DNA of 64,000 nucleotides from a virus (IMGVR_UViG_3300037245_000806:64001-128000); one strand, 5' to 3'. Counted from the first letter of the stretch, positions 13,838 through 63,865 are shown. Translations and numbers: made by a program. The notes: generated from the letters alone by a model not told the origin.

Positions 13838-13877
13838 GGCAGGTGCTTCCTTACGGTCCTCTTGGCTTGACACAGTG

Positions 13878-14003
13878 TTACCATCCAAACATGCTGAACA
13901 TCTCACGCATCTCCTTGAACGCATCGCGCAACAGTTTGCGCACGACACAATAGGCAGCCACAGCCACCGCAGCGACTGCACAGACAATGTATAGGGTAGT
14001 CAT
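13878..14003 (-). CDS. 41-aa single-TM peptide
   Basis: GGGAGG RBS; MTTLYIVCAVAAVAVAAYCVVRKLL...FGW; TAA lies within palindrome 13868-13880. Confidence 0.6.
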   Translation of the reverse strand: MTTLYIVCAVAAVAVAAYCVVRKLLRDAFKEMREMFSMFGW

Positions 14004-14029
14004 ATGCGCCTCCCTCAATGAACACGGGC

Positions 14030-14075
14030 ATCCTTACGCATGCCTGTGCCCTTGTCAAGATGTTTTTTCGCATGG
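14030..14075 (-). promoter_or_regulatory. promoter with TTGACA -35 and upstream CCATGCGAAAAAA box
   Basis: TTGACA 14053-14058, weak -10, box 14063-14075. Confidence 0.55.
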
Positions 14076-14088
14076 AGCGTAAACTTAT

Positions 14089-14994
14089 TTAGGGCGAGTT
14101 CTCAGGGAGGAGCGCGAAATTGATGTTGTCAATATCAGGGATAATGTACTCGCACATGGAGACGCCACCCACCTTGAACGAATACTTGACGTTCTCTGCG
14201 GTGTACTCCCCGGAGCGATTAAGGACCAGTTCCCAATAGCCGTCAGGCCCGGCGGTGACAGTCTTCGCACTCTTGATGACCTGAATGCCACCCGTAGTGA
14301 AGAACTTGTAATCGACGAGGTTCGCCACGACGTCGCGCGCCGCAGGGTCGTCACTGATGTCGTGGAGGAAGCCCCACACAACACAGGTTCCCGGCGAGGG
14401 CGGCGAGGAGGGATTGAACGGGGCACCTTCGTAAAGAACCGGTGTTGCGCCGCTCACCACGAGGTCTTTCGGAAGCGGGTCGAAGGTGTACTGCCCGAGC
14501 TTCTTGAGCATCACCTTGTAGTTACCGTCGTCCAGATTCCTCAGGAGTTGGCCTGCCGCATCCGTGAGCCCGAAGGCGTACAGCGTCGTCAGCGTTGCGT
14601 CGAATATCTGAACAGTGCAGTCAGGAATAAGCGGTCCGCTGCCGACCTCTTGCACGGTGAAGGTCACGATGTTCGAGCCCGAACCCGCGCCGTCGATGTC
14701 GTCGAAGAGTTGGTTGTACACGTCGTAGTCATTCCGCTTGCCCTCGGGGAAGAAGGTCGCGTGCGTAATGATGATGAGCCAGCGGCCCGTGAGGTTAGGG
14801 GTGAAGACCGTGGCGTAATCGCCGTTGCCAAGCTCGGTGATCGTGACAGGGATGCTGCCCGAGACCTCTGCCCCGGCGGGGTTCCACAGGCGCACCCCGA
14901 ACGTGGCGGGGAGGACGCCCGTCTTCAGGTTGCCGAGGGCATCGTCGCATACAAAGGTGTCGTGAAGCGGCGTGGCCTTCTTGCCGAGCAGCAT
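14089..14994 (-). CDS. putative virion structural protein (beta-sandwich, prealbumin/CarboxypepD_reg-like repeats)
   Basis: ITELGNGDY..VFTP, TDAAG....LDDGNYKV, T.GPDGYWELVL motifs; located in the tail block. Confidence 0.55.
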   Translation of the reverse strand: MLLGKKATPLHDTFVCDDALGNLKTGVLPATFGVRLWNPAGAEVSGSIPVTITELGNGDYATVFTPNLTGRWLIIITHATFFPEGKRNDYDVYNQLFDDIDGAGSGSNIVTFTVQEVGSGPLIPDCTVQIFDATLTTLYAFGLTDAAGQLLRNLDDGNYKVMLKKLGQYTFDPLPKDLVVSGATPVLYEGAPFNPSSPPSPGTCVVWGFLHDISDDPAARDVVANLVDYKFFTTGGIQVIKSAKTVTAGPDGYWELVLNRSGEYTAENVKYSFKVGGVSMCEYIIPDIDNINFALLPENSP

Positions 14995-15003
14995 CGTAGT
15001 CCC

Positions 15004-15447
15004 CTATGGTGTTTGCTTGATCTTCTCGACCTTTTCGGCGAGGTCATCAAGAGTCTTACAGATACGCTCGTCTGTATCCTTGAATGATGTGTGTTCCGCG
15101 CGCATGTCGCGGAGTATAAGGCTCGTATCACGCGCGTCCTTCTCGCGTTGCTTGGCACCATCTTGGAGGGTCTGCTGAATGGTACTTACATGCTCTAGGC
15201 GCTTGGCAGTTTCCAGATTCATCGTAGTTTGCACGCCCCGGTCTGCATGGATGGCGTCGAACTTCTTGTCTGATTCCTCGACGTGCTTCTGGACAATGGT
15301 GAGGGTCTTCTCGATCTGCGTGCTCTGCTTTCCGATCACGCGATACTGGACTATCTCGGCCACGAAATAGGTGGTTACGAGAAACGCGACGAAAGCCAAC
15401 GCCCTGAGCACATTCGTGACCGTCAGGAACTTGCCTTCTTTAGGCAT
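15004..15447 (-). CDS. membrane-anchored coiled-coil protein (holin or spanin-like candidate)
   Basis: One N-terminal TM helix followed by a coiled coil. Confidence 0.5.
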   Translation of the reverse strand: MPKEGKFLTVTNVLRALAFVAFLVTTYFVAEIVQYRVIGKQSTQIEKTLTIVQKHVEESDKKFDAIHADRGVQTTMNLETAKRLEHVSTIQQTLQDGAKQREKDARDTSLILRDMRAEHTSFKDTDERICKTLDDLAEKVEKIKQTP

Positions 15448-15619
15448 CGTTTTTGCGTCCTTCCATTCGAGGTCCAGCGTAGTTACCCAACGGCCAGTAC
15501 CACGGTGCCCCACTCGGCTTGAAACAGGACGCGCACGCTATTATCCCGGCACAATACGCTCCGGGTGTTGCAACAAGCATTCCTATCACCAATCCGAGGA
15601 GCCACCACATTTCGCCCCC

Positions 15620-16024: not shown

Positions 16025-16029
16025 GTTAC

Positions 16030-16626: not shown

Positions 16627-16635
16627 ATCGTCCTC

Positions 16636-19543: not shown

Positions 19544-19804
19544 CTATCCTGCTTGCGCCAGCTTCGCCTTTATGCCAAGGCACTTGATGCTGCCTTCTTT
19601 GAACTTGCGACACGTCGCCGGACGATCTTCGTAGATGGTACATAACATTGTGTCAAGGTCCAGCGCCACGCACGTCTCGTCAGCCCGCTGTTGCATGTAC
19701 CTTACGCCGCCAAGGGTGAACGTCATCTCCTCGGGGACGTTGTTGAAGCGACCCACATCCGTGAGCATCTTGTGACAACACGCCCCGCAGCCCATGCAGC
19801 CCAT
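19544..19804 (-). CDS. YkgJ-family (CxxCxxCC) cysteine-cluster protein
   Basis: CMGCGACC...C.AL.....CTIYEDRP.TCRKF. Confidence 0.85.
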   Translation of the reverse strand: MGCMGCGACCHKMLTDVGRFNNVPEEMTFTLGGVRYMQQRADETCVALDLDTMLCTIYEDRPATCRKFKEGSIKCLGIKAKLAQAG

Positions 19805-19811: not shown

Positions 19812-22800
19812 CTACTCATTGAGAGTACCCACCTGCCACTCCCGAATACCATAGAAGAAGTTCTCCAACACGACGTCGGCTACAAGATCGTCACTCCCAT
19901 GATTGGCGGGGCGCTGTAGTCTACACCAGATGATATCGCCCGTCTTCCGGTCAGAGATGTCTATTCGCTTAGCGAGTACGTATCGTTGCGACCTGCCCGC
20001 AGGCCAAAGGTTAGTGAACGTGATGAGATTCACCTGCGTGGGCTCCTCAAGCGCAGAGCCATTGAACGTCGCACCCGGACCTGTCTTCGCTGCGTAGAGG
20101 TTCATCACAGCGACCTTGTCGCCCCCGGCAATTGGAGCATCAGCGGACAACTCGAAGACCACCTGTATACCGGACGACGTGTCCATGTCTGCCGTGATGA
20201 GAATGCGGAAGTACATGTCATCGTCTTTTGTGTCCTCGAACTTGTTCTCCTTGAGCCCGAACGCAGGGATGTTGGCCGATATGTCAATGGACTGATCGCC
20301 AGCGCCACCCTTGAACACACCCGACTCGGAAAGCTGAGGGCGGGCCGTGCGCGCGTCACCATGATGTGAGACCGTCCCGTTGGGGCGTATCTCGAAGTAA
20401 CTTCCCTTCATGCGGGGCGACCTGAGTATCGGCGACGTAGTGATCGCAGTCACGATGCGACAGCGCATCCAGTAACCGGTGTCGCCATCCACAGCAACCG
20501 TCGCCCAACCCGCCGCACTCGGGCTGGCCTCAGTGACCCCATCGTGGATGCGCTGGTCCCAACGGATCGTATAGCCCTTGTCGCTCGCGCCGCCGAAGCT
20601 CACGTCGGCAGTCGAGTTGGAGAAGCCCGACCGCGTGTTCAGTGAATTGATCGCCAGCCAACTCGCCGAACCGCCGTCGTAGTATTCCCACACGATAGAG
20701 CCCGCCCCGAGATTGATCGGGGTGATGCCCATGATGTACCCAATGGCGTGAAAGATGAATGGGCTCAGGTCACCGAAATAGATCGCCGCGTCGGCGTTCA
20801 CATTCGGGAAGCTGATATCATTACCATCGGCCACGTCGGCATAGGTGGCGCTGCCATCGAACGTCTTGACCTTCGTCCCGAAGAAGTACGGGCCACCCTG
20901 CCCTGCGCGGAGGAAGTTGCCACCCGTTTGTCCGTGAGAGCCGACCGCCATGTCTTCGAGGAAGCGGTACACGTTCACATCGGTATCGAATCCACCAATG
21001 TTGACCGTAGCACCCGCAGCGATGCTCACACGGTCCCGCGAGAAGGAGACGGTCTGCGCCTCGATGACACCCGACGCCGTCTCGACAAGTATGTCAAAGA
21101 TGGTTGACTCGATCTGAATACCCTGCGCGGAAATCTGACCTCCGCTGCCGCCTGTACGGAAACCGTAGTCCCCTCCGCTTAGTCGTCCACCGATTACAGC
21201 GATAACACCGCTGTCGGCGTATGCGCTATTGATGACCTGATTGCTTGTTGACGCGAAGCCGACTGCCGCCACCACAGCACCCGGCGCAGAGGCATGAAGG
21301 ACTGTATCAACAGGCGCATTCCTGATAATCATCGACGTGTACGACAAGACCGTTCCGCCAGCAACCGACGACCTGAAGTACGTCCCAAGCGATGTTATCG
21401 GCGCAGCCGCGCAGTCATAGCAGAGGACGAGAGCGCCTGCTGCGGCACACTCGATGCCGACCAGCCCATCCTCAACACGAATGTCGCGGAGAACCCATGT
21501 ACCATTACTGACGGACATCTTGGCGAGCGCAGCAGTCGTAGTGCCCCTCAGCGTGAAGCCCTCAAGCTCGCTGTTGTCTGCGCCAGCGAACAGGTCGGAA
21601 CTCGACGTGTCAGCCTCGATGACTGTACTCGACGCGCCATTGCATGACACAATGTCAACATACGGGATGTTCACGAGCGGGTTGTCTTCAATGAAGACGC
21701 CGGGGCCGACCTTGATGATGTATCGGTTGGTCACGTCTGCATCCGTGATCGTGGACAACGCGTGCTTGAGCGTCAGGAACGGGGAGGTCATGTGCCCCAA
21801 CCCGGTGAGGTCACTCCCGTTCTTCGCAACCCACAAGAGATTCTTGATTACGGTCTGAGGCTGCGCGGAGAGCTTGAGACCGATCAGGTCGAGTATCTCG
21901 CCCTTGTCTGTTGTCGAGGTGCGGAGGACGGGGAGGACGATCTGACCCACCGTTGTCGGCTTGGTCGTAGTGGGGACACCTGCCGACGTCGGGCTGAGGA
22001 AGTATGTCGTGTTGACAGTCAGCGCGCCACCATTCTGCCACCCCGTGATAACCACGTCACCGATCTTCTGCACGGTGAAGTTGTCCACGCCAGCAACAGC
22101 GATAACGACCCAACACGCCTCCGCGTTAAGCGACGAGTCAGCCTTCGCGCGGACCCAACCTGCGTTGGTCGGGCGAACCACGGTGACTGCCGTAGTCGGT
22201 GCAGTGAAACCATGCGCCACCTGATTGACGCTCAACGAACCGCCACCGAGGTCGAGGTCGTCAATCGTGTCAAGCGCCTTCTGCACATCGGTATCTGAGG
22301 CGGACAGGTTCTTGGTGAAGGCAGCCACGACTGTGGAGATAGCGCTCGCCGGGTGCGAGTCGGGTGCGGAGCGACCCGTCGTGCCAGCGTGTACTATCGA
22401 GCCCGCATCGACAGCCGGGCCAGTGCTGACGTTACGGTAGTCTACCGCTGAGATGAAGTCAGGCGTCCCGCCCACGTTCCGATACGTGACGCGGTACAGC
22501 AACTTCCACTCGGCCACGCCCATCAAGATAGCCGGGAAGCTCTCATTCTCTGCCCCGGACACAGTGGTGTATTGCGCCTGCCCGACGAGCGTCTGAATCG
22601 GTGAGCCCAAGACGCCTGCGCCATAGATGTAGTAGTTGATGTACCGATTGTTCGCCGCAGCGGTCAGCGTTCCCGCATCGTCAAACATGAGCGTGTCATC
22701 GACGCCCGCGTTGACAACACGATACGGTGTGGCGACGGCGTTCTCTACGCGCATCGACGTGAGGCCAGCATTCCGATACCAGATGTTACCGCTCGCCTGC

Positions 22801-26265: not shown

Positions 26266-26296
26266 AGGTCAGTCCCCACGTAGTCGTGACACAGTG

Positions 26297-29227
26297 TTAC
26301 GCTCTGGCCGGTCCGATCTTCGACATGCCATCGTACCAGATGAGTCCCTTCTTGCCGAGCGCTTTTGCGGCACTCATGAGTTTCTTGAAGTGAATACCGG
26401 TGAACTCAGGGCGCTTGGCGATTGCGGATAGCTTGTAGTCGCCCCCCTCGGCAGTCTTCTCCATGAACGCGAGCAACGCCGCCTGCGCCTTGCCCTTCGC
26501 GGCTGCCTCCTGAATGCCCTCCGCGACCTTCTCGGCACTCACAGAGTCCGTGCCATACATGGAGTCGTCAGCGGGCGTGAGGTACCGCTGAACCTGTCGC
26601 TTCGTGAAGCGGTCCGTGTTGCCGGTCAGCGTGGTGAGCGCCACGATGTCTGGCAGGATGTACTGGACGAACACGCGGCCTGCACCGATCCGCACGCCAG
26701 TGCCGCCCTTCATCTCCTTGTTCAGGATCGCATTGCCCTTGTAGTTGTCGTTGTCATCGATCACGAGCCCGAGCTTCGTGACAAGCTTGTCATTGGACCC
26801 GGCGACACCCTCGGCAATGCCCTTCTTCCAGAGGTCGCAGATATCATCCTGCTCGATCTTCCCGCGCACCAGCTGGCAGGCATCGGGGAGGACCACAGAC
26901 GAGCAAGTTCCGCAGCGCTTGTCGCCGTCCTTGTCAGTCTGCGAATGGCGGTAGTTCACTTCCTCCTTGGGCTTCCGGTCCACCGCTTTGTTGCGGGTGG
27001 GGGCGGCTGCCTCATCGACGGGCTCCAAGACTTTCTCACCCACGTCCTTCGAGGTCATTGAAACGCGCCAACCCTTGCCATTCTTCTTTCGCCACTTACG
27101 CATCAACCTCGCAGAGCCGCGCTTGACCACAATACCCGCAGGGTCCACAAGCACATAGCCCACCATGGCTTCCTGTAGTTTGATGATATTGGCAATGCCT
27201 TTCCCCGCCGGAAGCGAGCGCTGTGACGCCGGGGTGACACCAAGCTCCTTCTTCAGCGCAGCCCGGAACGATGGACTCTTCATGGCGTCAGCAAAGGACA
27301 CGCTGGCGAAGCCACCACTGAGCCTGACCTTCCCGCCGTACTTCTTGGCGAGCGCGCGAAGTGACTTCGTGAACGCACTGTCGGTCGCCTCATCGAGCTT
27401 GACGCGTGTGGTATTGAAGCCCGCGCCCTTGACTGCTCGAATGATGCGACTCACTGAGGCCACTGCTTCTGCTGCCGTCGCAGGCTTACGCCGTAGTGTT
27501 GCCATGAGTTTCTTCGCCCCCGTACCAATTGCCTTGAGCACCTTCACGAGCGTTGCGTCCGGTCGCTTGTCATCCACCGCGCGAATCGCATACGCCTTGA
27601 TCTTATGCTTCCCCTTCGGACCGAAGTCAACAAGATACTCAGGATCAACGGTAGTGTCCTTCGCGACCAGTGACACAATGTTGCCCCGGAGGCTCGCAAC
27701 CTTGACCTTCTGGCCGGGCTTGAAGAAGCTCTCCTCGTCGATGGATTCGCGCAGTGCTCTATGGGGCTCATCCGCGAGGCGATACTTCTGACCCTTGAGC
27801 GTGAACCAATGCTTCTTGCCGTGCGACACCATCACGCCCTTGAGTTGCTCATCCGACACAGCTTCAGCAACCCCCAGCTGAACGTAAACGCGGTAGACGT
27901 GCGAGCGGAAGCTGCTGTCCTCCTCGATGTCGTCCAACGCGAGGTAAATGCGCTTGGCTGCCTGCGTGTTCAGGGCGATACGGTAGTTGGCTCCCGCCTT
28001 CTTCGCCTCGCCTATCGCTTTGACGCCAGCCCGATCCAAGGCATCCTGCGGGTCGTCCACTTCGACGATCTTGTAACGCAACTCCTCGAACAGCTTCTTC
28101 GATACGACAATGTGCCGGGGCAGCTTGTACACTTCATCGATGGACTCGCGCGCGGACTTGAGTTCCTTGTACTCACTCCACCAACCGTCCAACGTCATGG
28201 CGTCCACTTGCGAGGTCATGACGCTCGCCGTGTACCATCCCGACGCACCCCCGCCAATGAAGTAGTAGTAACCCTTACCCTTTACCAGCTTCTCCTTGAC
28301 GCCCTTCGCCTTGAGCATCTTGTTGACCGTGCCGAGGGTCACCTTGCCCTCATCGATGGATTCATTCTTCCTCTTGAGCCGCACCTCGTCAGCCTTCACG
28401 GTGATCTCATTCGGGGTCTGCGTCTTCGTGCCGGGTGCGACACGTGCGTAGTCCTTTGGATCGATCAGGACCACGAGTGTCGCTGGACCCTTCGGATAGA
28501 AGACATTGACATCGCGCTTGATGATCTTGCCGGGGACCGGAGGCTTGACTGCGATGGGCTTGTACCCGCGCTTCCATCCGAACCTGCGGACGACCACGAT
28601 CTCATCGCCCACCTTGTACGTTGGGCCTTTGTAAATGCTCGGTATGAAGATGCGCTTCTCATCGATGGCAGCCGCCTCGAACACTTTCTTCGGACCGCAG
28701 TAGTCACATACACCACATTGCGCGGTGCCACGCCACTGAGTATCCGGGTCGTCCTTGGGGCCGAACCTGATGTGCTCCGTCGAACCGCACTCGGGGCAGA
28801 GCACCTCACTGATATCTTCAGTGGCAAGCAAGGTACCGCTAAGCGGAACCGTGAAGAATCCCTGCTTGCCAGAGCCGCTCGTCCCCGAAGGCCCGTGGCC
28901 GCTGTAGTGCATATGCACCTGAGCACCAGAGCGAGCGTACTTCGGGAAATACTTGGCGATGATCTTCTGCGTCTTCTCAGGGCTGTGATACAGGCGCGCG
29001 ACCGTGAAGTCCTTCGCGTCCTGTGACTTCCCCTTGGTGGCGTCATCGAACTTCAGGTACCGGGCCTTCATGAACGTGTCGGAGTATGCGATGCGCCGTA
29101 GTTTGCTGGCCATCTCAGTGGTGACGAGCACCTCGTACACGCGCAGCTGCTTGCCGACCACCTCGATGGCAAGGTCGCCCCGATAGACTTGGCCCGCACG
29201 CTTCTCAGCTTCTAGGATGGCTGGCAT
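26297..29227 (-). CDS. ~976-aa modular basic protein with [ILV]DE linkers (candidate head polyprotein B)
   Basis: ATG 29227 after GAAGGGG; ESIDE x3, AIDE, LDE, VDE, LQE, IQE linkers; zinc ribbon, SH3-like, HiPIP-like and wHTH-like modules. Confidence 0.8.
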   Translation of the reverse strand: MPAILEAEKRAGQVYRGDLAIEVVGKQLRVYEVLVTTEMASKLRRIAYSDTFMKARYLKFDDATKGKSQDAKDFTVARLYHSPEKTQKIIAKYFPKYARSGAQVHMHYSGHGPSGTSGSGKQGFFTVPLSGTLLATEDISEVLCPECGSTEHIRFGPKDDPDTQWRGTAQCGVCDYCGPKKVFEAAAIDEKRIFIPSIYKGPTYKVGDEIVVVRRFGWKRGYKPIAVKPPVPGKIIKRDVNVFYPKGPATLVVLIDPKDYARVAPGTKTQTPNEITVKADEVRLKRKNESIDEGKVTLGTVNKMLKAKGVKEKLVKGKGYYYFIGGGASGWYTASVMTSQVDAMTLDGWWSEYKELKSARESIDEVYKLPRHIVVSKKLFEELRYKIVEVDDPQDALDRAGVKAIGEAKKAGANYRIALNTQAAKRIYLALDDIEEDSSFRSHVYRVYVQLGVAEAVSDEQLKGVMVSHGKKHWFTLKGQKYRLADEPHRALRESIDEESFFKPGQKVKVASLRGNIVSLVAKDTTVDPEYLVDFGPKGKHKIKAYAIRAVDDKRPDATLVKVLKAIGTGAKKLMATLRRKPATAAEAVASVSRIIRAVKGAGFNTTRVKLDEATDSAFTKSLRALAKKYGGKVRLSGGFASVSFADAMKSPSFRAALKKELGVTPASQRSLPAGKGIANIIKLQEAMVGYVLVDPAGIVVKRGSARLMRKWRKKNGKGWRVSMTSKDVGEKVLEPVDEAAAPTRNKAVDRKPKEEVNYRHSQTDKDGDKRCGTCSSVVLPDACQLVRGKIEQDDICDLWKKGIAEGVAGSNDKLVTKLGLVIDDNDNYKGNAILNKEMKGGTGVRIGAGRVFVQYILPDIVALTTLTGNTDRFTKRQVQRYLTPADDSMYGTDSVSAEKVAEGIQEAAAKGKAQAALLAFMEKTAEGGDYKLSAIAKRPEFTGIHFKKLMSAAKALGKKGLIWYDGMSKIGPARA

Positions 29228-33500: not shown

Positions 33501-36500
33501 CTTCTTGTCGAACTCCTTCTTCTCCTGCTCGCCCTTCGTCGCCGCGATGTGCCCGTGCATGAATGAAGCATGAGCCGCATCACCACGGGTGCCACTGCGA
33601 CCGTACTCCTCGATGGCCGCTGCTTCCGCGAGGTCTTCGTAGTCATCCCCATCAATGGACTCTGCAACATAGGTCGCATTGAGGGCCTGAGCCACAACGT
33701 CTTTACCGGACCCCTTCTTGGTGAGCTTCACGTGACGATACATCTGAAGGAGCAGTAGTCCCGCTGAGACCTCAGGCTCCGAGAGCCCCGTGGCCTTCAC
33801 GATGGCCTTGCCAGTGATAGGCTTCTTCGCCTTCTTCACCGCAGCGAGCATCGCCTTCTCACGCTTGTCCAGCGGCGCGCGCTCATCGAGGTCGTCCTCG
33901 GAGACAGTCTTCTTCTTGCACTTCACGCAGTACCCTGTCGCGGCGAGCACCTTGCTGCCGCAGCCCGGACACTTGACGGTCCCCGTAGTGGCCTTCTCAT
34001 CGAGCATGGCTTCGGAGTGCAGGAGCAAGTCCTCCGCATCCTCATCCGCGATGTGCCCCATGTCCTCGCCGTCAATCACGAGCGAGTAGGTATCGTCGTC
34101 CTCCGTAACGATCTCGATCTCGCACTCCTTGACCTTGCGGTCAAGCTGGATCATGTGACCAAGCTTGGCCTCGTCATCGCGGAGCGGCCTGACCCACGTG
34201 CCCTTGCCCTTCACCTTCCACCCGGCGGCGGTCATACCGAGCGCGCGTGAAACAGCGCGGAGAATCGTCTTGATCTGGTTGTCGCCCTCAGCTGCCGGGG
34301 CACCCAACGTGACCTGCGCAGTCTTGCCAACAACCTTGCGCGTTGCGATGGGGTTGTCGGCACCGCGACGAACTGCAACAAGGGCGTCACCCTTGATGCC
34401 GATGGTCCTCGTAGTACGCCCCTTGCCATCGCCGCCGCGCACGAAGTCCGAGATAACTATCTTGGCCTTCATCGGGATGCTATAGCCCTTCACCTCATCG
34501 ACTGACTCGATGATCGAGAGCCCCTCTGCCTTGGCTGCCTTGCGGATTGCGTTGACCCATGTCTGACTCACGTTGCCCTGCGGATCACCGAGCACAATCC
34601 GGTTGCCCTTGCGCGTAGCGAGCGGGTCTTTGCGACCGCGCGAAGGTCCGGTGAGGATGTCGCCCTCGATGTCAAGGTTCTTCGCCTTGACGCCCGAGCC
34701 ATCCTTGCCCTGCACGAAGGCCTTGATCATCTTGCGGTCGCCCGCCTTCAGCTTGTAGCCCATGGACTCCCGTAGTCGTGACACAGTGTTATCATCTTCG
34801 CCGAGGGCGAGGAGACGCATGCGACAGGCGCTTTCGACCGCTACGTCCCGAGTCGCTATAAACTCGTGGCTTCTCCCACTTTTGATGCCTTCAAACAGGC
34901 TCGTAACACAACGTTCGCCCTCCACAACAGTACCATGCTCCTCAACGTACTCCTGAAAGAAGGCTTCAACCATGACGTCAAACTCGTTGGGAAGGTCCGC
35001 ATAGAATTCAACCATCTTCTCAAGAAGGCTATGGACTTCCTGTAGTGTGATCGGAACCCTGTACGCCTGACCGCCAACCTGTACCAACGTCTTCCCATCA
35101 TCCGTACCATCCCTGCGTGCGGTCCATGAAAGGAACTTGGACTGAAAGCCCTCCTCCCCCTCCATGTACAGCGGGCCTTGCTGTAGTTCAGGCTCGAAGC
35201 CCACGCACAGTACCTCACCGGGGTGGATCATCTTGTTCTCGCCTGAGCCCACCACGGGAGCGCCTATAAGATTGTGCGAACCCTCGGGGTCATCCTTACC
35301 CTTGTCTGACTCACTGACATCCTTGCTGAGGCTCTTGAGCATACGCAGGTCTGTTGCCACCGAAGCGTTCTTCTTCTTCTTGCCTGACTTGATATCCTTC
35401 CGCAGCTGCCTGAGGGCTTTCTTCATCCCGTCCGCTGTGGCCCGCACTCCATAGCCCTTGGCGTACTGCTTCAGTTCCCTGCTGTGACCGTAGGCTTCGT
35501 CGATACCTTCGTTGGGGGCCTTCGCGCTGAACTTCTTGACTTCCTTCTTGAGCACGTGTGTCTGGACTCCCGGTTCGAGTTCCACCTTGTACCCGGTCGC
35601 GGTCTTCTTGATAACCGTGACGGTCTTGCCCTTGGCGTACTTCTTGCCCTTGAGCTTCAGGTCCGTAGTGAGCATGTACGCCTCGTCGATAGACTCGAAG
35701 GGCTTCGTGAGTTTCGTCATGCGCGCATACGGGAGCTTGTCCCAATGCGCGTGGGCAGCCTTGACCACTTCAGCCTTCTCCTTCGGATCGCCGTAGTCAC
35801 CGAAGGACATCGCAGCTTTCTTCCACCCTCTCGGGCTCAGCTTCTTCAGGCGCTTCTGAATCTTCTTGACCGTCTTCACCTCGTTGTCGGCGAAGCTCAG
35901 GATCATGAAGGCGACAAGGTCTTTGATGGTACCCTTGTCTGCTTCGTCGAGGTCTTCCACTTTGGGGAACCACAGCCCGCCGTTGCCATACCACCGCACG
36001 CCATTGGCATCCTCAACACAGAGGATACTGTTCTCGGCATCCTCATTGAGCGTGGAGTCGTGCAGGTCGGGGTACAGGAACTGGAACGCATTGTCAGTGA
36101 CCCCACCCTCTTCGCAGATGGCTACGTAGTCTGCCTTGGTCTCGGGGCGCAGGCCCTCGGTCTTCATCGCGGGGTCTTCCTCTTTGGACTTCGCGGTTGC
36201 CTTGGCGAAGCCCGCACGCTTCGGGAAGCATTCGATGATCGTGAAGTCGCTGACCTGACCGGACTCGAAGTCGGTATCGCCAGCGGTGACGAGAGTGTCC
36301 AGCTTGCAGAAACCCCTCACACCTTCGTTGAGCTTCTGAAGAGGCTCGGCAGCAATCTTGCCTTGGAAGATCGCGAGGAACGTAGTGTCCGTTCCTTCGA
36401 GTTGTGTCTCAAGGAACTGCGTGATGAGGTCGCCGCACTTCTCCATGAGGTACGCCTCGAAGAGGATCGCGGCCATGCCCGTGTCGGTGTTGCTGAAGGC

Positions 36501-36873: not shown

Positions 36874-36902
36874 AGGATAGGTGAGCCTTAACACAGTGTC
36901 AA
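36874..36902 (-). promoter_or_regulatory. promoter TTGACA-17-TATCCT overlapped by palindrome
   Basis: -35 36897-36902, -10 36874-36879; TAACACAGTGTCA 36889-36901. Confidence 0.7.
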
Positions 36903-51639: not shown

Positions 51640-51660
51640 GGGCTACCCCTTGACACAGTG

Positions 51661-52083
51661 TTACGCGCTCTTACTGCGAAGGGCGCTCTTGAGGCTGGGG
51701 GAAAGCACGAACCGCACGTGCTTCCGCCGTGGTGTATCCTGCATCTCGCCGGTCTCCGGGTGACGGTACCGCGTTGGCTTCTTCATGAACGGCTCCAACG
51801 TTCCGATATTCGTCAGCGCAACCGGCTTGCCCTTACGTAGTGTGCCCCGTATCTTGTCCAGAATCAAGGCCCACAAAGACTGCGCCTCGTCACCGTCGAG
51901 CTTGAGCTTCTTGCTGAGGTATATCTCCATCCCGCGCCGGGTCAGCTTACCGCGTTTACTAAAGCCCTCACCCTTCGCTTTGGCACTGCCAGCAGATTTT
52001 CCACCGCGCTTACCACCACGCGCTCCCCGCTTGGTCGCTCCACTCGCAACAGCGGTCCGTGTTCTGGTTTTAGTGTCAGACAT
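51661..52083 (-). CDS. HU/IHF family DNA-binding protein
   Basis: G.PVALTNIGTL.......R.P.TGE.......VRF..S..LK; AAGGAG RBS. Confidence 0.85.
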   Translation of the reverse strand: MSDTKTRTRTAVASGATKRGARGGKRGGKSAGSAKAKGEGFSKRGKLTRRGMEIYLSKKLKLDGDEAQSLWALILDKIRGTLRKGKPVALTNIGTLEPFMKKPTRYRHPETGEMQDTPRRKHVRFVLSPSLKSALRSKSA

Positions 52084-56746: not shown

Positions 56747-57738
56747 CCCTTTGCCCCTTTCAAGATTTCGAGCCCCAATTCAAGAAGCTCAGCCTCGTCA
56801 CGTCCCTGAAACTCCATGTAGCGTCCAAGGACTTCCTCGTTCGTGTCCTTCGTGTGAACTGCAATCCGTGGTGCCTGCTCGTCGGTCTCGACGAGCGTGC
56901 CCTCGACCCAGCCGGTCTTACCCTGTGCGGCCTCAATAGCTGCAAGAGCGGCCTTGGGGTCAGAGGTCTTAACCCGCACGAAGTCACGCTTCCCCACCTG
57001 CGACACGTCGTCGTCAACCAAGATATGAAACTCGGGACTCACGTTGTTGTAATGGCACTTCCACTTGCCCGTCTTCGAGTCCACCACATAGAAGCCGCGC
57101 TTCTGCCCGGCGTCCCTGAAGTCGATCTGAAGCGGCGAGCCCACGTAGCGTACATTCGGAGTAATCACCTTGGGCTCGTGGACGTCACCAAGGAAGACGT
57201 GCCTGAACCGCTTCGGGCACAGGTACGAGAGCGGCACACCCTTGCCTTTGTAGCCTGCCTCCTCAAGGAGCACGTGGCTCAGGAGGTATTCGGACCCGTG
57301 CTTCTTTGACATTGTGTCAACGGCCTTGCGGTACGCGTCGATGTCCTCAGTCCATGGGACCAGCAGGAACTCATCGAAGGTATCCGGCGTCTCGATCACG
57401 TGCGTATAGCCCCGGAAGACCTGAAGGCTATTTCGTTCCGGTGACCGCAGCAGCGCGTCGTGGTTCCCAACGAGCACCACGACATTCTCCAACACCGTCG
57501 CGGCCTCATAGAACTCCCGGCATACAATGTCGAGCACGCCGAGCGGAATCTCCGTGCGCGAGTTGAATATGTCGCCTATGACGAATATACCTTCGCAGCC
57601 TTCCGCAACGCTCGTCTTGACGATCCAGCGCCAGCACTCAATAAGGTCGATCAGGCGCGTAGTCAGCCCGCTGGGGTGCAACGTCGAGAGGCGTGAGTAT
57701 TCATCAAATTGCAGGTCTGCCGTGATAGCCCACTTCAT
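56743..57738 (-). CDS. Mre11/SbcD-like (T4 gp47-like) metallophosphoesterase nuclease
   Basis: TADLQ, GDIF, GNHD, LGDVH, YVGSPLQIDF.D. Confidence 0.92.
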   Translation of the reverse strand: MKWAITADLQFDEYSRLSTLHPSGLTTRLIDLIECWRWIVKTSVAEGCEGIFVIGDIFNSRTEIPLGVLDIVCREFYEAATVLENVVVLVGNHDALLRSPERNSLQVFRGYTHVIETPDTFDEFLLVPWTEDIDAYRKAVDTMSKKHGSEYLLSHVLLEEAGYKGKGVPLSYLCPKRFRHVFLGDVHEPKVITPNVRYVGSPLQIDFRDAGQKRGFYVVDSKTGKWKCHYNNVSPEFHILVDDDVSQVGKRDFVRVKTSDPKAALAAIEAAQGKTGWVEGTLVETDEQAPRIAVHTKDTNEEVLGRYMEFQGRDEAELLELGLEILKGAKG

Positions 57739-58403: not shown

Positions 58404-58404
58404 A

Positions 58405-60398: not shown

Positions 60399-60565
60399 TC
60401 TTCTCCTCCTTGAGTATAGACCCGAGCGTCGGGAGCGAGAGCGCAATAGGCCACGTCGCCCACCACGGGTGGTCGCACAGTATGAGGGCCAGAGCGGTTG
60501 CAGAAAGACCGAGGAGGCAGATGGTCAGTGCCGCGTAGCGTGCGCCGAGTCGTCGTAACACAGTG

Positions 60566-61504
60566 TTACCGATCTAGGAGAATCCTGTACCTGTGATTGC
60601 CAATGACCGCTTCGCTGTCACCGACCCACGTGGCCGGAATCATGACAGTCTTGCCCTTCATCGCCTTGTACCGCCCGTCGCGATATGTTCGAGAATGCCG
60701 CCTGCGTTCGTGCGGGCGCTTGGGGCCATGAGCTTCGAGCGGCGGTAGGTTCAACCGCTTCCTGATCTCACTCGGCCTGAGGAGTGTATACGTCGGGCGG
60801 TCATGCCGCCTGCGGATACGCTCCTTGTGCTTCCCCTTGCGCGCCTGTCGCTTCCTGTGCCGTTCCGCTGCCTTGAGCGGACTGTCCTCGACAATGAAAC
60901 GATTCGGGGAGTTGAAGTAGAAGACCTCCTGAAGCCCCACGTTCACGTTCCGCAGGATGGGGGGCGTCATCAGCTTGAGGCTCTCTTGATCCTTAGGGCG
61001 GCTTGCTATGTCAACGCCAATGATGCCGTCTGCCTTTGTGGCCAACGCTGACCACAACACCATGCCCATGAAGTCAATCGGGCCTTCAGGATTCAGCTTC
61101 ACCGGGCCGAAGCGACCTTCGCTGATAAGCACGGAACCCTCGGGGTAGCCTTCGATCACTTTCTTGATCGCGGCTGCCTCCTCCGGGTCGTCACCTTCCA
61201 CAAAGGCGTCCACATGCCACGCGTCTATGGGTTCAATCTCAAGGAACCCGCGCTCGCCGCTGAGCCCCTCTTGATCCTTCTCGGTATCCCACAGGACAGT
61301 ACACGTCGCCTTGTCCTCGACGGCCATGGTCGGAAAGGGCAGGAAGAAATGCTCGTGGAGCATGGCAACAGTCTCCACGTCGCTATGCTTCGGTAGCACG
61401 TCCTGCGCCCTCGCGTCGAACAGGAAGACGCGCGCTTGCTCCATGCGCTTAATGACCGCCGGTATGTGTCGTTCAATGATGCCCGCAGCTTGATCAAAGA
61501 TCAT
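60566..61504 (-). CDS. conserved phage protein with C-terminal PH.RRRH.R motif
   Basis: FFLPF...VE N-terminal motif; RPHERRRHSR...IPATWVG. Confidence 0.75.
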   Translation of the reverse strand: MIFDQAAGIIERHIPAVIKRMEQARVFLFDARAQDVLPKHSDVETVAMLHEHFFLPFPTMAVEDKATCTVLWDTEKDQEGLSGERGFLEIEPIDAWHVDAFVEGDDPEEAAAIKKVIEGYPEGSVLISEGRFGPVKLNPEGPIDFMGMVLWSALATKADGIIGVDIASRPKDQESLKLMTPPILRNVNVGLQEVFYFNSPNRFIVEDSPLKAAERHRKRQARKGKHKERIRRRHDRPTYTLLRPSEIRKRLNLPPLEAHGPKRPHERRRHSRTYRDGRYKAMKGKTVMIPATWVGDSEAVIGNHRYRILLDR

Positions 61505-61526
61505 TTTTTACCGCCTCACACGATAG

Positions 61527-61570: not shown

Positions 61571-62544
61571 ACGCTAAACTTTTTTGCTGACCGCCGGAAC
61601 GGTTGGTCGTACCGGTCGGGCGCACCGATGATCGATTGAAGGTCCAGCTTCTTACACAGACGTAGGAAGCCGAGCTTCTGCACATCCGGCACCCAATTGA
61701 CCAGTTGCTTCGTCAGGCCCTCCGTGCCACCGAACGACCGGCGCAAGTCGATTGCCTTCACGACACGCTTGAGGTAATCGATATTCTCGTACAGTGACTT
61801 CTCGAATTTCCTCGGCTTCGGTCGCTGTGCTGCGCGATTGCGAAGCACGCAGAGTTGGGCCGTAGTTGACATCCGCTCGAAGCCCTTGACATGCTCCGTG
61901 GCCTCTAGGATGAGTTCCTTAGCGCGCTTGTCGCCACACCCGGAGCAACCAGCAATTGAGTCTGACGGGTCACCCACGAGAGTCTTGTACAGCAGATAGG
62001 TCGAAGACTCGACACCGGTAATCTCGGCGAAATTGTCCGCGTCGATCCATCGCTTCTTGTTGAGGTCATAGACGCGAGCACCCCACTCCACCATCTGCCA
62101 GAGGTCTTTGTCCCCGGACATCACAACCGGCGTGCCGAAATGCTTCAGGCATATCGACGCCACCGCGCCGACAACATCATCGGCTTCCCGCTCTGTGTAA
62201 CTGATGCAGAGCACCCCGAGCTTCTCCATCATTTTGCGCGCCAACCCAATCTGAGTGAACGCGCTTGCCTTCTCCTCCTCAGTCAGGAGCTTCTTTCGCT
62301 CCTCACGCTTGCACTTGTAGTCGGGCAGAAGCTCTAGCCGACGCTTGGGGATACCCGCGTCGAAGCACGCGACAATGGGGCCTGAGTACCTCCCCTCCGG
62401 TGACTCCAAGAAAGCGCGAAGCGTGTTGAGCGCACCGTAGACGCCCCCGGTGAATTGCCCGCCCGCCTTGAGGTCGTCCAGAGCGGTCGCCATTATGCAG
62501 CGCTTAATCAGGCTGTTCGCGTCGATCACCAGAGGCATGGGCAT
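61552..62544 (-). CDS. 5'-3' exonuclease/FEN (T4 RNase H/PolA 5' domain-like)
   Basis: VIDAN, CFD, YK..R, EADDV, SGDKDL.Q, LVGD.SD.I.G..G.G.K.A. Confidence 0.93.
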   Translation of the reverse strand: MPMPLVIDANSLIKRCIMATALDDLKAGGQFTGGVYGALNTLRAFLESPEGRYSGPIVACFDAGIPKRRLELLPDYKCKREERKKLLTEEEKASAFTQIGLARKMMEKLGVLCISYTEREADDVVGAVASICLKHFGTPVVMSGDKDLWQMVEWGARVYDLNKKRWIDADNFAEITGVESSTYLLYKTLVGDPSDSIAGCSGCGDKRAKELILEATEHVKGFERMSTTAQLCVLRNRAAQRPKPRKFEKSLYENIDYLKRVVKAIDLRRSFGGTEGLTKQLVNWVPDVQKLGFLRLCKKLDLQSIIGAPDRYDQPFRRSAKKFSVTRKTS

Positions 62545-62574
62545 TGGGATGCTCCTATACAGCGGGGCAGACAG

Positions 62575-62606
62575 TAAGAAGGGGGGCAACCTCTCGGCTG
62601 CCCCCC
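62575..62606 (-). terminator. intrinsic terminator after parB
   Basis: GGGGGGCAGCC-GAGA-GGTTGCCCCCC followed by TTCTT. Confidence 0.65.
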
Positions 62607-62630
62607 TCCGTGATACCGCAGAAGGCGAGC

Positions 62631-63773
62631 CTACTCCTCAGTCTCGTCCTCGGTCTCAGGCTTGTGCTTGCTGGCGGCATCGGCGACGTGCTCTTTGAAC
62701 GCCTTGAGCGCGGCCTTGCCAGCCTTGGTCTTGTCGTCCAACTCGGGCGGGAACGGCGAGTCAATTGCGCCCCGATCCCACAGGAGGGTCGCCGCGACGG
62801 CACAACTCACGTGATACTCGGTCGTGCCGATCTCGTCGCCCTTCGCCTTGTGTACGATATCGCTGACCAGCCGTAGCATCGTCTCCTTCTCACGGCTGCC
62901 CTTCCGCACCTTGAGGGCGGCATCGCGAGCCGCACCCTTGAGGTGCTGCGCGGACTTGCCCGGCGTGGGGGCGTTGTCCGCTTTCGCGGTCTTCTTGGCG
63001 AGCTTCTTGATGGCTGCCGCAGACATGCCGGGCTCAAGCGCGTCCTTGAACTCCTGCTTGCCACGCGTCTTGCCGTCAACCTTCGTCAGTTCGAGACCGG
63101 CGATGAGCGACATCGCGCCCGACTCGACGTGCTCCTGCACATCCTTCGGTGCGCCCATCAGCGTCATACACCTGCGAATCTTGCTGACGTGTAGCCCCGT
63201 CTCCTGCGCGATGCGGGGGAAGCCCCACTCGTGCTTCGTGGCGAGTTCGTTGACGACGCGCCCGATTTCTATCGGGTTCAGGTTCGTCCTGCCCTCTTCC
63301 GAGTTCTCAGCGACAGCAACCGCGCGGGCGCTCGCATCTTCGGATTCGAGGTCCATACGTATCGTGACCGCAAGCTCAGTCAGGCCGAGCAGGTCACTGG
63401 CGCGCAGACGACGCTCACCGGCGACGAGCAGGAAGGAGCCGGGCTTGTCGAGCGCGGGCCGCACGACGAGAGGGCTGAGCAGGCCGTTCTTCTTGATGGA
63501 CTTGGCGAGCGGTTCGAGGTCGGTGACCACGGTGCGGGGGTTGAACCCCTGCACGATCTTGATGACCTTGCGGGGCAACATCGTGACGATGGACCCCTTG
63601 CCCTTCAAGGCCTTCTTCACGTCGCCAACGGACAGCGTCACGCCGTGTAGCTCGACCGGTACAACCGGCGCGGACTTCCCCGTCTTCGCAGCGTTACTCG
63701 GCTTGGCGACCGTCTTCTTCGCCACCTTCTTCTTCGCCACCTTCTTCTTCCCCGTCTTCTTCTCCACAGCCAT
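62631..63773 (-). CDS. parB: ParB/Spo0J-like CTPase DNA-binding protein with Lys-rich N-terminus
   Basis: FNPR, LA.SIKKNGLL.PLVVR, VAGERRLRA, AENS...R.NLNPIE, HTH. Confidence 0.88.
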   Translation of the reverse strand: MAVEKKTGKKKVAKKKVAKKTVAKPSNAAKTGKSAPVVPVELHGVTLSVGDVKKALKGKGSIVTMLPRKVIKIVQGFNPRTVVTDLEPLAKSIKKNGLLSPLVVRPALDKPGSFLLVAGERRLRASDLLGLTELAVTIRMDLESEDASARAVAVAENSEEGRTNLNPIEIGRVVNELATKHEWGFPRIAQETGLHVSKIRRCMTLMGAPKDVQEHVESGAMSLIAGLELTKVDGKTRGKQEFKDALEPGMSAAAIKKLAKKTAKADNAPTPGKSAQHLKGAARDAALKVRKGSREKETMLRLVSDIVHKAKGDEIGTTEYHVSCAVAATLLWDRGAIDSPFPPELDDKTKAGKAALKAFKEHVADAASKHKPETEDETEE

Positions 63774-63836
63774 TTTGCGTCCTCCCTTTCAGCGGTCTGA
63801 GGGCGACCCCTGTCACCCCCTGTTCTTCATTGCGGA

Positions 63837-63865
63837 AGTATGCCATAATCTTAACACAGTGTCAA
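63837..63865 (-). promoter_or_regulatory. parB promoter TTGACA-17-CATACT overlapped by palindrome
   Basis: -35 63860-63865, -10 63837-63842; TAACACAGTGTCA 63852-63864. Confidence 0.75.

What the first reader, a model, noticed from the sequence alone, without database searches (positions are those of the whole stretch)
13868..63864. Genome-wide 13-bp palindrome TRACAC-A-GTGTYA, a candidate ParB (parS-like) or master-regulator site
Seen: nine exact copies (13868, 26287, 34779, 36889, 40414, 43472, 51651, 60556, 63852); under 0.01 expected by chance in 64 kb at uniform composition. Near-matches at 1072, 5920, 19643, 21645 and 57307. Five copies begin at a stop codon (13878, 26297, 36899, 51661, 60566). 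Two contain or overlap the TTGACA -35 of strong promoters (parB and the 2081-aa gene). Three lie inside CDSs. All nine have central A on the + strand, so they share one polarity. Copies at 26279-26299 and 34771-34791 share 21 bp. Known: ParB CTPases load at palindromic parS sites and often autoregulate. Inference: a phage ParB uses a non-canonical dispersed site to organise the genome and to link partitioning with head-cargo gene expression.
Basis: partly seen in the sequence, partly recalled or inferred. Interest (0 to 1): 0.8.

Follow-up and report, generated by a model that had tools for sequence, protein, structure and literature searches.

The report
Phage-wide docking sites for orphan ParB
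An uncultured 143-kb contractile-tailed phage carries one 13-letter DNA palindrome about every 5-7 kb along its whole genome, most likely as docking sites for its own partner-less ParB DNA clamp, an arrangement known from plasmid RK2 but not described for such phages in the papers I could search.

Summary
The window is part of a 143,033-bp phage record with every gene on the minus strand. That genome holds 21 exact and 28 relaxed (TRACAYNRTGTYA) copies, against 0.03 and 0.07 expected.

The sites are spaced far more evenly than chance, in this genome and in two long relatives. Half of them use their first TRA as the stop codon of the upstream gene. Five form the -35 box of sigma-70-like promoters, including those of parB and the 2081-aa gene.

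Each of about 15 related phage lineages has its own palindrome of the same build and a syntenic ParB homologue. ParB is the core gene most often next to a site. Its most variable DNA-binding positions match the known ParB/Noc specificity residues.

No ParA, tubulin or integrase was found, so this is not classical partition. My best reading (0.65) is a KorB/Noc-like array of ParB loading sites that covers the genome and represses some promoters. Binding itself is inferred, not shown.

The link to "head cargo" is not supported. This scan had already noted the same array in a neighbouring window of this genome, and similar ParB-linked arrays on other DNA.

The parts
13868..13880 (-). Exact site. 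Reads TAACACTGTGTCA on the coding strand and lies at a gene junction, 48 nt before the called start at 13819.
26287..26299 (-). Exact site. Its TAA is the stop codon of the 976-aa gene, and it lies 21 nt before the start of the 523-aa gene.
34779..34791 (-). Exact site inside the 2081-aa gene, read in frame as D-N-T-V-S. It shares 21 bp with the site at 26287.
36889..36901 (-). Exact site. Its TGA is the stop of the 170-aa gene, and it forms the TTGACA -35 box of the promoter of the 2081-aa gene.
40414..40426 (-). Exact site, preceded by T (TTGACAC). It lies in a weakly called ORF, 40099-40815.
43472..43484 (-). Exact site at the 5' end of a 101-aa gene (43172-43477) that is conserved in G001 and G006.
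51651..51663 (-). Exact site. Its TAA is the stop of the 140-aa gene, and it lies 11 nt before the GTG start of the 231-aa gene upstream of the terminase gene.
60556..60568 (-). Exact site. Its TAA is the stop of the 312-aa gene.
63852..63864 (-). Exact site that forms the -35 box of the parB promoter (TTGACA-17-CATACT with TG), 78 nt before the parB start.
5920..5932 (-). Relaxed site TGACATTATGTCA inside a CDS. It fills the 16-kb gap between exact copies.
19643..19655 (-). Relaxed site TGACACAATGTTA inside a CDS.
21645..21657 (-). Relaxed site TGACATTGTGTCA inside the 1165-aa gene.
57307..57319 (-). Relaxed site TGACACAATGTCA inside the Mre11/SbcD-like gene.
62631..63773 (-). The parB gene (380 aa). 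The protein has a Lys-rich disordered N-tail, a ParB_N CTPase fold with GERRLRA and AENS boxes, a ParB-type HTH, and an all-helical C-terminal domain.
36874..36902 (-). Sigma-70-like promoter of the 2081-aa gene (10 of 12 matches).
63837..63865 (-). Sigma-70-like promoter of parB (10 of 12 matches, with an extended -10 TG).

Best explanation
The 13-bp palindromes are most likely the cognate DNA sites of the phage's own orphan ParB-family protein, which has a CTPase fold, an HTH and a helical C-terminal domain.

Shown:
- The sites form an evenly spaced, genome-wide array, kept as double-stranded dyads.
- Relatives carry lineage-specific versions of the palindrome together with a syntenic parB.
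- A subset of sites is the -35 box of sigma-70-type promoters, including the parB promoter.

Inferred:
- A ParB dimer binds each site through its HTH.
- By analogy with ParB, Noc and KorB, it closes into a CTP clamp and slides onto flanking DNA.
- With no gap above about 8.5 kb, this would cover the whole phage chromosome.
- At promoter-embedded sites, ParB would compete with sigma-70 region 4 and repress those promoters, including its own.

There is no ParA partner. The role would therefore be genome-wide control or marking during infection, not plasmid-style segregation.
For: **Array statistics**
- 21 exact and 28 relaxed copies, against 0.025 and 0.072 expected.
- The coefficient of variation (CV) of the gaps is 0.55 (exact) and 0.50 (relaxed) in G000, 0.51 in G001 and 0.40 in G006. 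Random placement gives about 0.95 (P 0.004 to below 0.0001).

**Dyad kept at the DNA level**
- Positions 2 and 12 vary independently. 10 of 28 sites would give an A.C mismatch in a hairpin.
- RNA folding energy at the sites equals that of random 29-mers.
- About 30% of sites sit inside ORFs.

**Relatives**
- G001 has TRACAYWRTGTYA, 37 copies.
- G006, a complete 156-kb genome, has CCAGTGACA-SSS-TGTCACTGG, 17 copies.
- G004 has TAAACG-W-CGTTTA, 9 copies.
- G005 has CAAACA-C-TGTTTG, 7 copies.
- G002, G003, L031, L046, L053/54, L056 and L032 have further variants.
- Every one of these encodes a syntenic ParB homologue.

**ParB as the binder**
- ParB is the only sequence-specific HTH protein I recognised among the 53 proteins shared by the two complete genomes G000 and G006. 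The Xre and NrdR-like candidates are not shared.
- parB is the core gene most often flanked by a site: 7 of 13 lineages, against 12% of junctions overall.
- ParB matches chromosomal ParB, Spo0J and Noc by sequence (E 1e-23). By predicted fold it matches ParB, Noc and KorB, with target-normalised TM-scores (TMt) up to 0.72.
- The CTP-box residues are invariant in 69 homologues.
- The positions equivalent to the ParB/Noc specificity residues 173, 179, 184 and 201 (PMC7383237) are among the most variable in the DNA-binding domain. Their entropies are 2.7, 2.0, 2.8 and 3.3 bits, inside conserved helices.
- R201 is invariant except in G004 and G005. These are the two arrayed lineages whose site lacks the ACA..TGT core.

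**Promoters**
- 5 of 14 predicted intergenic sigma-70-like promoters have the site as their -35 box. One more has it just downstream of the -10 box.
Against: - No binding experiment exists.
- The covariation rests on about 15 lineages that are not phylogenetically independent. It is imperfect: L046 keeps the RRC helix but has TAACGA, and L053/54 and L049/52 share RRA but differ in the outer bases.
- For several ParB-bearing relatives (L029/30, L039, L037, L057) I found no clear repeated palindrome in the 10-20 kb available.
- By sequence the protein is closer to chromosomal ParB than to KorB.
- No KorA- or TrbA-like clamp lock was identified.
- The predicted C-terminal domain is not the canonical ParB dimerisation domain.
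- Unknown conserved proteins could also bind DNA: 419, 165 and 231 aa, and two HU-like proteins.
- The 20:1 polarity of the central base is not expected for a symmetric dimer site.
Confidence: 0.65

Rival explanations
1. The palindromes are bound by a different dimeric DNA-binding protein, not ParB. This could be an unannotated conserved phage protein, the HU/IHF-like proteins, the ParB_N-methyltransferase fusions, or a host factor.
For: - Dyad symmetry only tells us the binder is a dimer.
- Several conserved proteins of unknown function lie in the same core block.
- Two HU-like proteins and two ParB_N-N6/N4 methylases are present, and at least the methylases are conserved in G006.
- The Cluster O phage dyad repeats have no assigned binder either (PMC4351075).
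Against: - ParB is the only recognised sequence-specific HTH protein in the shared core.
- Sites are most often next to parB.
- The ParB specificity positions diversify along with the sites.
- HU/IHF proteins do not normally read 13-25-bp perfect dyads.
- The Xre and NrdR-like proteins are not shared with G006, which keeps the TGACA..TGTCA core.
Confidence: 0.17
2. The element is transcriptional punctuation. It would be part of a phage-specific promoter, or a roadblock or terminator cassette marking operon borders, like stoperators or the promoter-early stem-loops of T4-type phages. The even spacing would then simply reflect operon size.
For: - 19 of 158 junctions carry a site, and half of the sites share a stop codon.
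- Many sites lie 11-22 nt before the next start.
- In G000 the central base is polar with respect to transcription, 20:1.
- 5 sites are -35 boxes.
Against: - No conserved -10 or start element lies at a fixed distance after the junction-type sites.
- No T-run follows the sites, and no stable hairpin forms.
- About 30% of sites lie inside ORFs.
- The polarity is lost in G001, G006 and G004.
- Stoperators are asymmetric sites read by a monomer (PMC9283540), whereas these are perfect dyads.
- This reading is compatible with ParB acting as the roadblock, so it is partly a sub-case of the best explanation.
Confidence: 0.1
3. The sites are true partition centromeres (parS) of a plasmid-like prophage. 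A ParA would be supplied by the host or has been missed.
For: - ParB has an intact CTPase fold and HTH.
- Dispersed centromere sites are known in the linear phage-plasmid N15 (from my own knowledge, not checked here).
Against: - The 98%-complete genome has no ParA/CbiA-type ATPase, tubulin or tyrosine integrase.
- ParB has no LG[KR]GL-type ParA-binding motif in its N-tail (motif from PMC12704722).
- The rest of the genome is a T4-like lytic-style set of replication, recombination and structural genes.
Confidence: 0.04
4. The sites act at the RNA level, as hairpins for mRNA stability (REP-like), processing, or translational control at gene junctions.
For: - The sites lie at stop codons and just upstream of ribosome-binding sites.
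- In G006 the long arms would fold stably, at -14.9 kcal/mol.
Against: - In G000, G001 and G004 the RNA is no more stable than random sequence, and in G005 only slightly more.
- A 6-bp stem with a 1-nt loop cannot form.
- Positions 2 and 12 show no compensatory change.
- No Rfam search was run.
Confidence: 0.03

Closest known systems
KorB and its OB operators on IncP plasmid RK2 (PMC11790492, PMC13584720)
   Same: - A ParB-family CTPase with an HTH.
- Short palindromic sites dispersed over the whole replicon.
- Some sites next to or over the -35 box of promoters, and others far from any promoter.
- The predicted fold matches KorB (target-normalised TM-score 0.72 to 8qa9_B).
- That OB is 13 bp is from my own knowledge. 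The paper text I read did not give the length.
   Different: - Here the replicon is a lytic-type 143-kb phage.
- There is no IncC/ParA partner, and no KorA or TrbA clamp lock was identified.
- There are 21-37 sites, with statistically even spacing.
- The sites often share a stop codon.
- By sequence the protein is nearer to chromosomal ParB/Noc (E 1e-23) than to KorB (E 6.5e-9).
Noc and its NBS sites in Firmicutes (PMC8429893, PMC7383237)
   Same: - An orphan ParB paralogue without ParA.
- Many palindromic sites dispersed over the chromosome.
- CTP-dependent spreading.
- Specificity set by a few HTH-domain residues.
   Different: - Noc has an N-terminal membrane-targeting amphipathic helix.
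- The phage protein instead has a roughly 40-residue Lys-rich tail predicted to be disordered.
- The site sequence is different.
- The context is a phage genome.
17-bp dyad repeat TGTTCGG-N3-CCGAACA of Cluster O mycobacteriophages (PMC4351075)
   Same: - More than 30 copies of one perfect dyad throughout a phage genome.
- The copies lie between ORFs, near ORF ends and inside ORFs, and are mostly not at promoters.
- The central bases are biased with the direction of transcription.
- The phage is not obviously temperate and has a ParB-like domain protein but no parA.
   Different: - The binder and function are unknown there, and the authors did not link the repeat to the ParB-like protein.
- The arms are 7 bp with a 3-bp centre.
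- The phages are siphoviruses of actinobacteria.
- Even spacing was not reported.
Stoperators of Cluster A mycobacteriophages (PMC9283540, PMC6550527)
   Same: - 13-bp sites, numerous and dispersed across the phage genome.
- They act away from promoters.
   Different: - Stoperators are asymmetric and oriented with transcription.
- They are bound by a monomeric immunity repressor of temperate phages.
- The sites here are perfect dyads in a phage with no lysogeny genes.
BisD, a ParB-like CTP clamp of ICEclc (PMC12409273)
   Same: A ParB-like CTP clamp on a mobile element that acts as a long-distance transcription regulator rather than a segregation protein.
   Different: - It is an activator on an integrative conjugative element.
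- I know only the abstract, and no dense site array is described there.

Membership tests
ParB-CTPase family (ParB/Spo0J/Noc/KorB type with HTH) | N-terminal ParB/Srx fold with the nucleotide-binding boxes (GERRxRA, ENxxR) | tested here: met
   - PF02195 matches at E 5.5e-12.
- G119, E120, R122, E156 and N157 are invariant or near-invariant in 69 homologues.
- By fold, the top matches are the CDP- and CTP-bound ParB structures 7bnk and 6sdk.
ParB-CTPase family (ParB/Spo0J/Noc/KorB type with HTH) | ParB-type helix-turn-helix DNA-binding domain | tested here: met
   - PF17762 matches at E 6e-8.
- A profile of the family aligns to the Caulobacter ParB-parS structure 6t1f over the HTH.
ParB-CTPase family (ParB/Spo0J/Noc/KorB type with HTH) | C-terminal dimerisation domain that makes the clamp | tested here: inconclusive
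   - The AF2 model shows a confident three-helix C-terminal domain, residues 293-368.
- The canonical PF23552 domain is not found in this family, although more distant ParBs have it.
- Dimerisation was not modelled.
ParB-CTPase family (ParB/Spo0J/Noc/KorB type with HTH) | Binds CTP and a cognate palindromic site | not testable with these tools
   This needs biochemistry. Only the conservation of the boxes and the genomic association with the palindrome are shown.
ParABS partition system | Adjacent ParA (Walker-type ATPase) and a ParA-stimulating N-terminal motif in ParB | tested here: not met
   - No PF13614 or PF01656 match was found in the 98%-complete genome.
- The neighbouring genes are a RecA-like gene and a 5'-3' exonuclease.
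- The N-tail has no [LFI]G[KR]G[LFI] motif (motif from PMC12704722).
KorB/OB regulon of IncP plasmids | Dispersed palindromic operators, some at promoters, some distal | tested here: met
   There are 28 sites. 5 are -35 boxes, 1 lies just downstream of a -10 box, and the rest are away from predicted promoters.
KorB/OB regulon of IncP plasmids | Partner clamp-locking repressor (KorA or TrbA) | not tested
   I made no search for KorA or TrbA homologues. None appeared in the Pfam survey of 136 proteins.
KorB/OB regulon of IncP plasmids | Close sequence kinship to KorB | tested here: not met
   KorB (8qa8) scores only E 6.5e-9, against E 1e-23 for chromosomal ParB/Noc.
Stoperator system | Asymmetric site in one orientation, bound by a monomeric immunity repressor | tested here: not met
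   - The sites are perfect dyads with a weakly symmetric flank, tCG..CGa.
- The polarity concerns only the central base and is not conserved.
Noc/NBS | N-terminal amphipathic membrane-targeting helix | tested here: not met
   Residues 1-36 are Lys-rich and predicted disordered, with pLDDT below 50.

The most novel reading that the evidence does not exclude
In a whole clade of uncultured roughly 140-160-kb lytic phages, an orphan ParB clamp and an evenly spaced array of loading sites may act as a 'self' coat for the viral chromosome. ParB-CTP clamps loaded every few kb would mark phage DNA. They might then recruit other proteins that carry a ParB_N domain. The two conserved ParB_N-N6/N4 DNA methylases encoded next to the giant head protein are candidates. 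Modification, silencing or protection would thereby be aimed at phage DNA rather than host DNA.
Probability: 0.12. Interest if true: 0.85.

Novelty: new variant of a known kind. Interest (0 to 1): 0.62.

Why it matters
ParB clamps are known as segregation proteins. In KorB and BisD they are also known as long-range regulators of plasmids and integrative elements.

If the reading here is right, a widespread group of large uncultured lytic-type phages uses the same CTP-clamp principle without any ParA. It would rest on a regular array of loading sites, written partly into stop codons, promoters and even coding sequence. That would give orphan phage ParBs a function. It would also offer a candidate explanation for the unexplained dyad repeats of phages such as Corndog.

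The system is easy to test: one protein, one 13-bp site and two promoters. The lineage-specific sites and the variable specificity residues also form a natural series for studying how ParB-DNA specificity evolves.

Tried and rejected
**Readings rejected**
- RNA hairpin, terminator or REP-like reading. Folding energy at the sites equals that of random sequence in G000, G001 and G004, there is no compensatory variation, and no T-run follows.
- NrdR box. The phage has an NrdR-like protein, and NrdR boxes end in ACAC..GTGT (from memory). The spacing differs, and the protein is not shared with G006.
- The 85-aa Xre protein as binder. It is not detectably shared with G001 or G006.
- The 578-aa protein with a Crp-like wHTH. 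It is a RecQ/DEAD-type helicase.
- The ParB-dependent thymine dioxygenase system (PMC13229309). There is no Tet_JBP gene, and those ParBs lack a DNA-binding domain.
- Restriction-site or methylation-motif reading. The TAACAC variants break any GAC-N5-GTC reading.

**Searches that gave nothing**
- Close DNA relatives among 50,697 phage records: none. ParB hits there reach at most 39% identity over at most 39% of the protein.
- Scans with the G004 and G005 ParB proteins found no further relatives.

**Methods that failed or were unavailable**
- De novo motif finding by k-mers or loose palindromes was too noisy in GC-rich 20-kb loci. Exact-arm recurrence worked better.

Full report
**Observation**

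The pattern TRACACAGTGTYA occurs nine times in the window, at exactly the coordinates given, always with central A on the + strand. Dinucleotide-preserving shuffles give 0.01. With one mismatch allowed there are 13 hits against 0.38 expected.

The window is bases 64001-128000 of a 143,033-bp virus record rated 98% complete. My ORF-based gene map puts 158 of 159 genes on the minus strand. The biologically relevant reading is therefore T[AG]ACAC-T-GTGT[CT]A on the coding strand.

The whole genome has 21 exact copies, and 28 copies of the relaxed form TRACAYNRTGTYA. A first-order Markov model expects 0.025 and 0.072. The one at 1072 does not and may be chance.

**Anatomy**

- Of the 21 exact copies, 18-19 lie between called genes. 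In 11 of them the first TRA of the site is the stop codon of the upstream gene. For the 28 relaxed sites the figure is 14, and 8 sites lie inside long open frames.
- The flanks weakly extend the dyad to tCG-site-CGa. The downstream side is better kept, as expected if the upstream side is constrained by the end of a coding sequence.
- Six of the seven exact copies that begin TGACAC are preceded by T, which makes TTGACA.
- Among 11 TTGACA-type sites, 5 have a good -10 hexamer at 16-18 nt, against 1.9% of random positions.
- A scan of the coding strand finds 14 intergenic sigma-70-like promoters. Five use the palindrome as their -35 box. One more, upstream of the 2581-aa gene, has a site just after its -10 box.
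- The junction-type TAACAC sites lie only 11-22 nt before the next start codon and have no conserved -10 element. They are therefore not promoters.

**Not an RNA element**

Positions 2 and 12 would pair in a hairpin, yet they vary independently. 10 of 28 sites would give an A.C mismatch. Predicted RNA stability around the sites equals that of random 29-mers in G000, G001 and G004 (-4.7 against -5.1 kcal/mol in G000), and is only slightly higher in G005. Only G006, with much longer arms, would fold stably. No terminator-like T-run follows the two sites scanned.

**Even spacing**

The gaps between sites are much more regular than chance:

| Genome | Sites | CV of gaps | Largest gap | P against random placement |
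|---|---|---|---|---|
| G000, exact | 21 | 0.55 | 16.1 kb | 0.004 |
| G000, relaxed | 28 | 0.50 | 8.5 kb | below 0.0001 |
| G001 | 37 | 0.51 | 5.4 kb | below 0.0001 |
| G006 | 17 | 0.40 | 16.9 kb | 0.0001 |

Random placement gives a CV of about 0.95. The result for G000 and G001 is the same when random sites are drawn only from gene junctions.

The relaxed, in-CDS copies fill the largest gaps left by the exact ones. This suggests that they are functional and that coverage of the genome is under selection.

**Relatives**

No close DNA relative exists among 50,697 phage records. Portal- and ParB-based searches of IMG/VR and metagenomes gave about 25 loci. Every contig long enough encodes a syntenic ParB homologue, lying between a RecA-like gene and a 5'-3' exonuclease. 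Each lineage has its own palindrome of the same build:

| Lineage | Palindrome | Copies |
|---|---|---|
| G001 (95 kb) | TRACAYWRTGTYA | 37 |
| G006 (complete, 156 kb) | CCAGTGACA-SSS-TGTCACTGG | 17 |
| G002 | CGTGACA-N3-TGTCACG | 6 |
| G003 | GGACA-N3-TGTCC | 5 |
| G004 | (AT)TAAACG-W-CGTTTA(AT) | 9 |
| G005 | CAAACA-C-TGTTTG | 7 |
| L031 | TTTGACAC-S-GTGTCAAA | 2 |
| L046 | TTAACGA-N-TCGTTAA | 2 |
| L053/54 | TAGACAY-N-RTGTCTA | 6 and 3 |
| L056 | GRGACAC-S-GTGTCYC | 2 |
| L032/33 | CCAACAA-W-TTGTTGG | 2 |
| L048/49/52 | GGTGACAC-T-GTGTCACT | 1 each |

Stop-codon sharing recurs in G001 (13 of 37), G006 (9 of 17) and G002 (3 of 6). In a few relatives I could not define a palindrome from the 10-20 kb available (L029/30, L039, L037, L057).

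**Which protein binds?**

The window's ParB (62631-63773, minus strand, 380 aa) has these features:
- It matches the ParB_N and HTH_ParB families.
- Its CTP boxes are invariant in 69 homologues.
- A profile of the family matches chromosomal ParB, Spo0J and Noc at E 1e-23, and KorB at E 6.5e-9.
- The AF2 model (pLDDT 81) shows a disordered Lys-rich N-tail, the ParB_N fold, the HTH domain and a three-helix C-terminal domain.
- Foldseek returns ParB, Noc and KorB structures.

Four lines of evidence tie ParB to the sites:
1. Among the 53 proteins shared by the two complete genomes G000 and G006, ParB is the only sequence-specific HTH protein I recognised. The Xre-type (85 aa) and NrdR-like (162 aa) proteins of G000 are not shared. 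The 578-aa wHTH protein is a RecQ/DEAD-type helicase.
2. Of 11 core genes, parB is the one most often flanked by a site: 7 of 13 lineages, 5 of them upstream. Only 12% of junctions in G000 carry a site.
3. Four positions of the phage ParB align with Caulobacter ParB residues 173, 179, 184 and 201. In that protein these residues set parS-versus-NBS specificity (PMC7383237). In the phage family they are among the most variable positions of the DNA-binding domain, at 2.7, 2.0, 2.8 and 3.3 bits, although they sit in conserved helices.
4. R201 is invariant in 69 homologues. It is replaced only in G004 (K) and G005 (N), the two arrayed lineages whose palindrome lacks the ACA..TGT core. A third, distant homologue, L058, also has K there and a different palindrome.

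These are correlations across related lineages, and there are exceptions (L046; L053/54 against L049/52). They do not prove binding.

**What it is not**

The genome has no ParA/CbiA-type ATPase, tubulin or tyrosine integrase. ParB also lacks the ParA-binding motif defined in PMC12704722. Classical partition is therefore unlikely.

There is no Tet_JBP dioxygenase, so the recently described ParB-activated thymine dioxygenase system does not apply.

Sites occur in all modules.

**Mechanism proposed**

ParB dimers would bind each dyad. By analogy with ParB, Noc and KorB (PMC11790492), they would close into CTP clamps and slide. With loading sites at most about 8.5 kb apart, the whole chromosome would be covered. 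At the five or six promoter-embedded sites, ParB would repress by occluding the -35 box, including at its own promoter.

The binding, the clamp behaviour and the repression are all inferred. Whether the main role is temporal gene control, a roadblock at gene ends, chromosome organisation, or recruitment of other ParB_N proteins cannot be decided here.

**Unexplained**

The central base is T on the coding strand in 20 of 21 exact copies (p = 2e-5). This runs against the strand's A>T skew. The bias is weak or absent in G001 (7:4), G006 (10:7) and G004 (6:3), but present in G005 (6:1). Corndog's dyad shows a similar bias.

**Comparison and novelty**

The closest working analogue is the KorB/OB system. 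The closest phage precedent is the unexplained 17-bp dyad of Cluster O mycobacteriophages (PMC4351075). Stoperators differ in being asymmetric and bound by a monomer (PMC9283540).

In the papers I could search, I found no description of an orphan ParB with an evenly spaced site array in lytic-type phages.

This scan had already reached a similar reading for a neighbouring window of the same genome. It has also noted similar arrays in several other phage genomes. Those are unchecked AI notes. I used them as leads only and re-derived the evidence here.

**Limits**

- Gene calls are my own simple ORF scoring.
- The host is unknown.

Noticed in passing
whole genome G000 (window = 64001-128000): By my ORF scoring, 158 of 159 called genes lie on one strand across 143 kb. 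The relatives G001-G005 are likewise almost unidirectional.
   Followed up: partly
L003:13354-14571 and L003:14809-16089 (genome 53354-54571 and 54809-56089), minus strand: Two adjacent N6/N4 DNA methyltransferases each have a ParB_N match, one weak at E 1.2e-4. They lie next to the 2581-aa head-module protein and are both conserved in G006 (41-44% identity). They might interact with the HTH-ParB system.
   Followed up: partly
window 34761-34791, minus strand: The site inside the 2081-aa gene shares 21 bp with the junction site at 26287. It is followed 15 nt later by GGGAG and an in-frame ATG (codon 690). This could be an internal translation start giving a shorter isoform.
   Followed up: no
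L005:3887-7018, minus strand (genome 131887-135018): A 1043-aa family-A DNA polymerase carries an N-terminal uracil-DNA-glycosylase-superfamily domain ahead of the 3'-5' exonuclease domain.
   Followed up: no
L001:56-544, minus strand: An NrdR-like protein (zinc ribbon plus ATP-cone) is encoded at the last position of the genome. No ribonucleotide reductase appeared in the Pfam survey.
   Followed up: no
genome 20001-64000 and window 144-8124 (proteins of alignment A4): The Pfam survey found a Tad6-type Thoeris inhibitor, a Zeta-toxin/AAA_33 kinase, DUF3326 and a treble-clef zinc finger. A Lar restriction-alleviation protein was found in the first 33 kb. I did not locate these individually.
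   Followed up: no
L059-L066 (G006, complete 156-kb relative): The 17 sites here are 23-25-bp palindromes, (GT)CCAGTGACA-SSS-TGTCACTGG(AC). They are spaced with a coefficient of variation of 0.40, and one lies at base 33 of the record.
   Followed up: partly
L058 (143-kb metagenome contig with a distant ParB): A 12-bp palindrome, CTTTCGCGAAAG, occurs three times in 20 kb near a ParB that is only distantly related (35% identity over 100 aa).
   Followed up: no
L029 at 3645, 7210 and 9511; L030 at 6303, 9868 and 12169: A repeated TCTTGACA -35-type box lies upstream of genes, including parB, in a relative for which I could not define a palindrome.
   Followed up: no
G005 (L027-L028): A 17-nt word, AAGATAGTGATGAAGAT, occurs about 11 times. 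It is unrelated to the palindrome and I did not examine it.
   Followed up: no
G001, e.g. 16009, 18577, 59168 and 70965 (L017-L020): Several promoter-type sites are preceded, 10-12 nt upstream, by a short GC hairpin plus a T-rich run (GCGTTATGCGGG-ATTTTTT type). This looks like a terminator-promoter-operator cassette.
   Followed up: no
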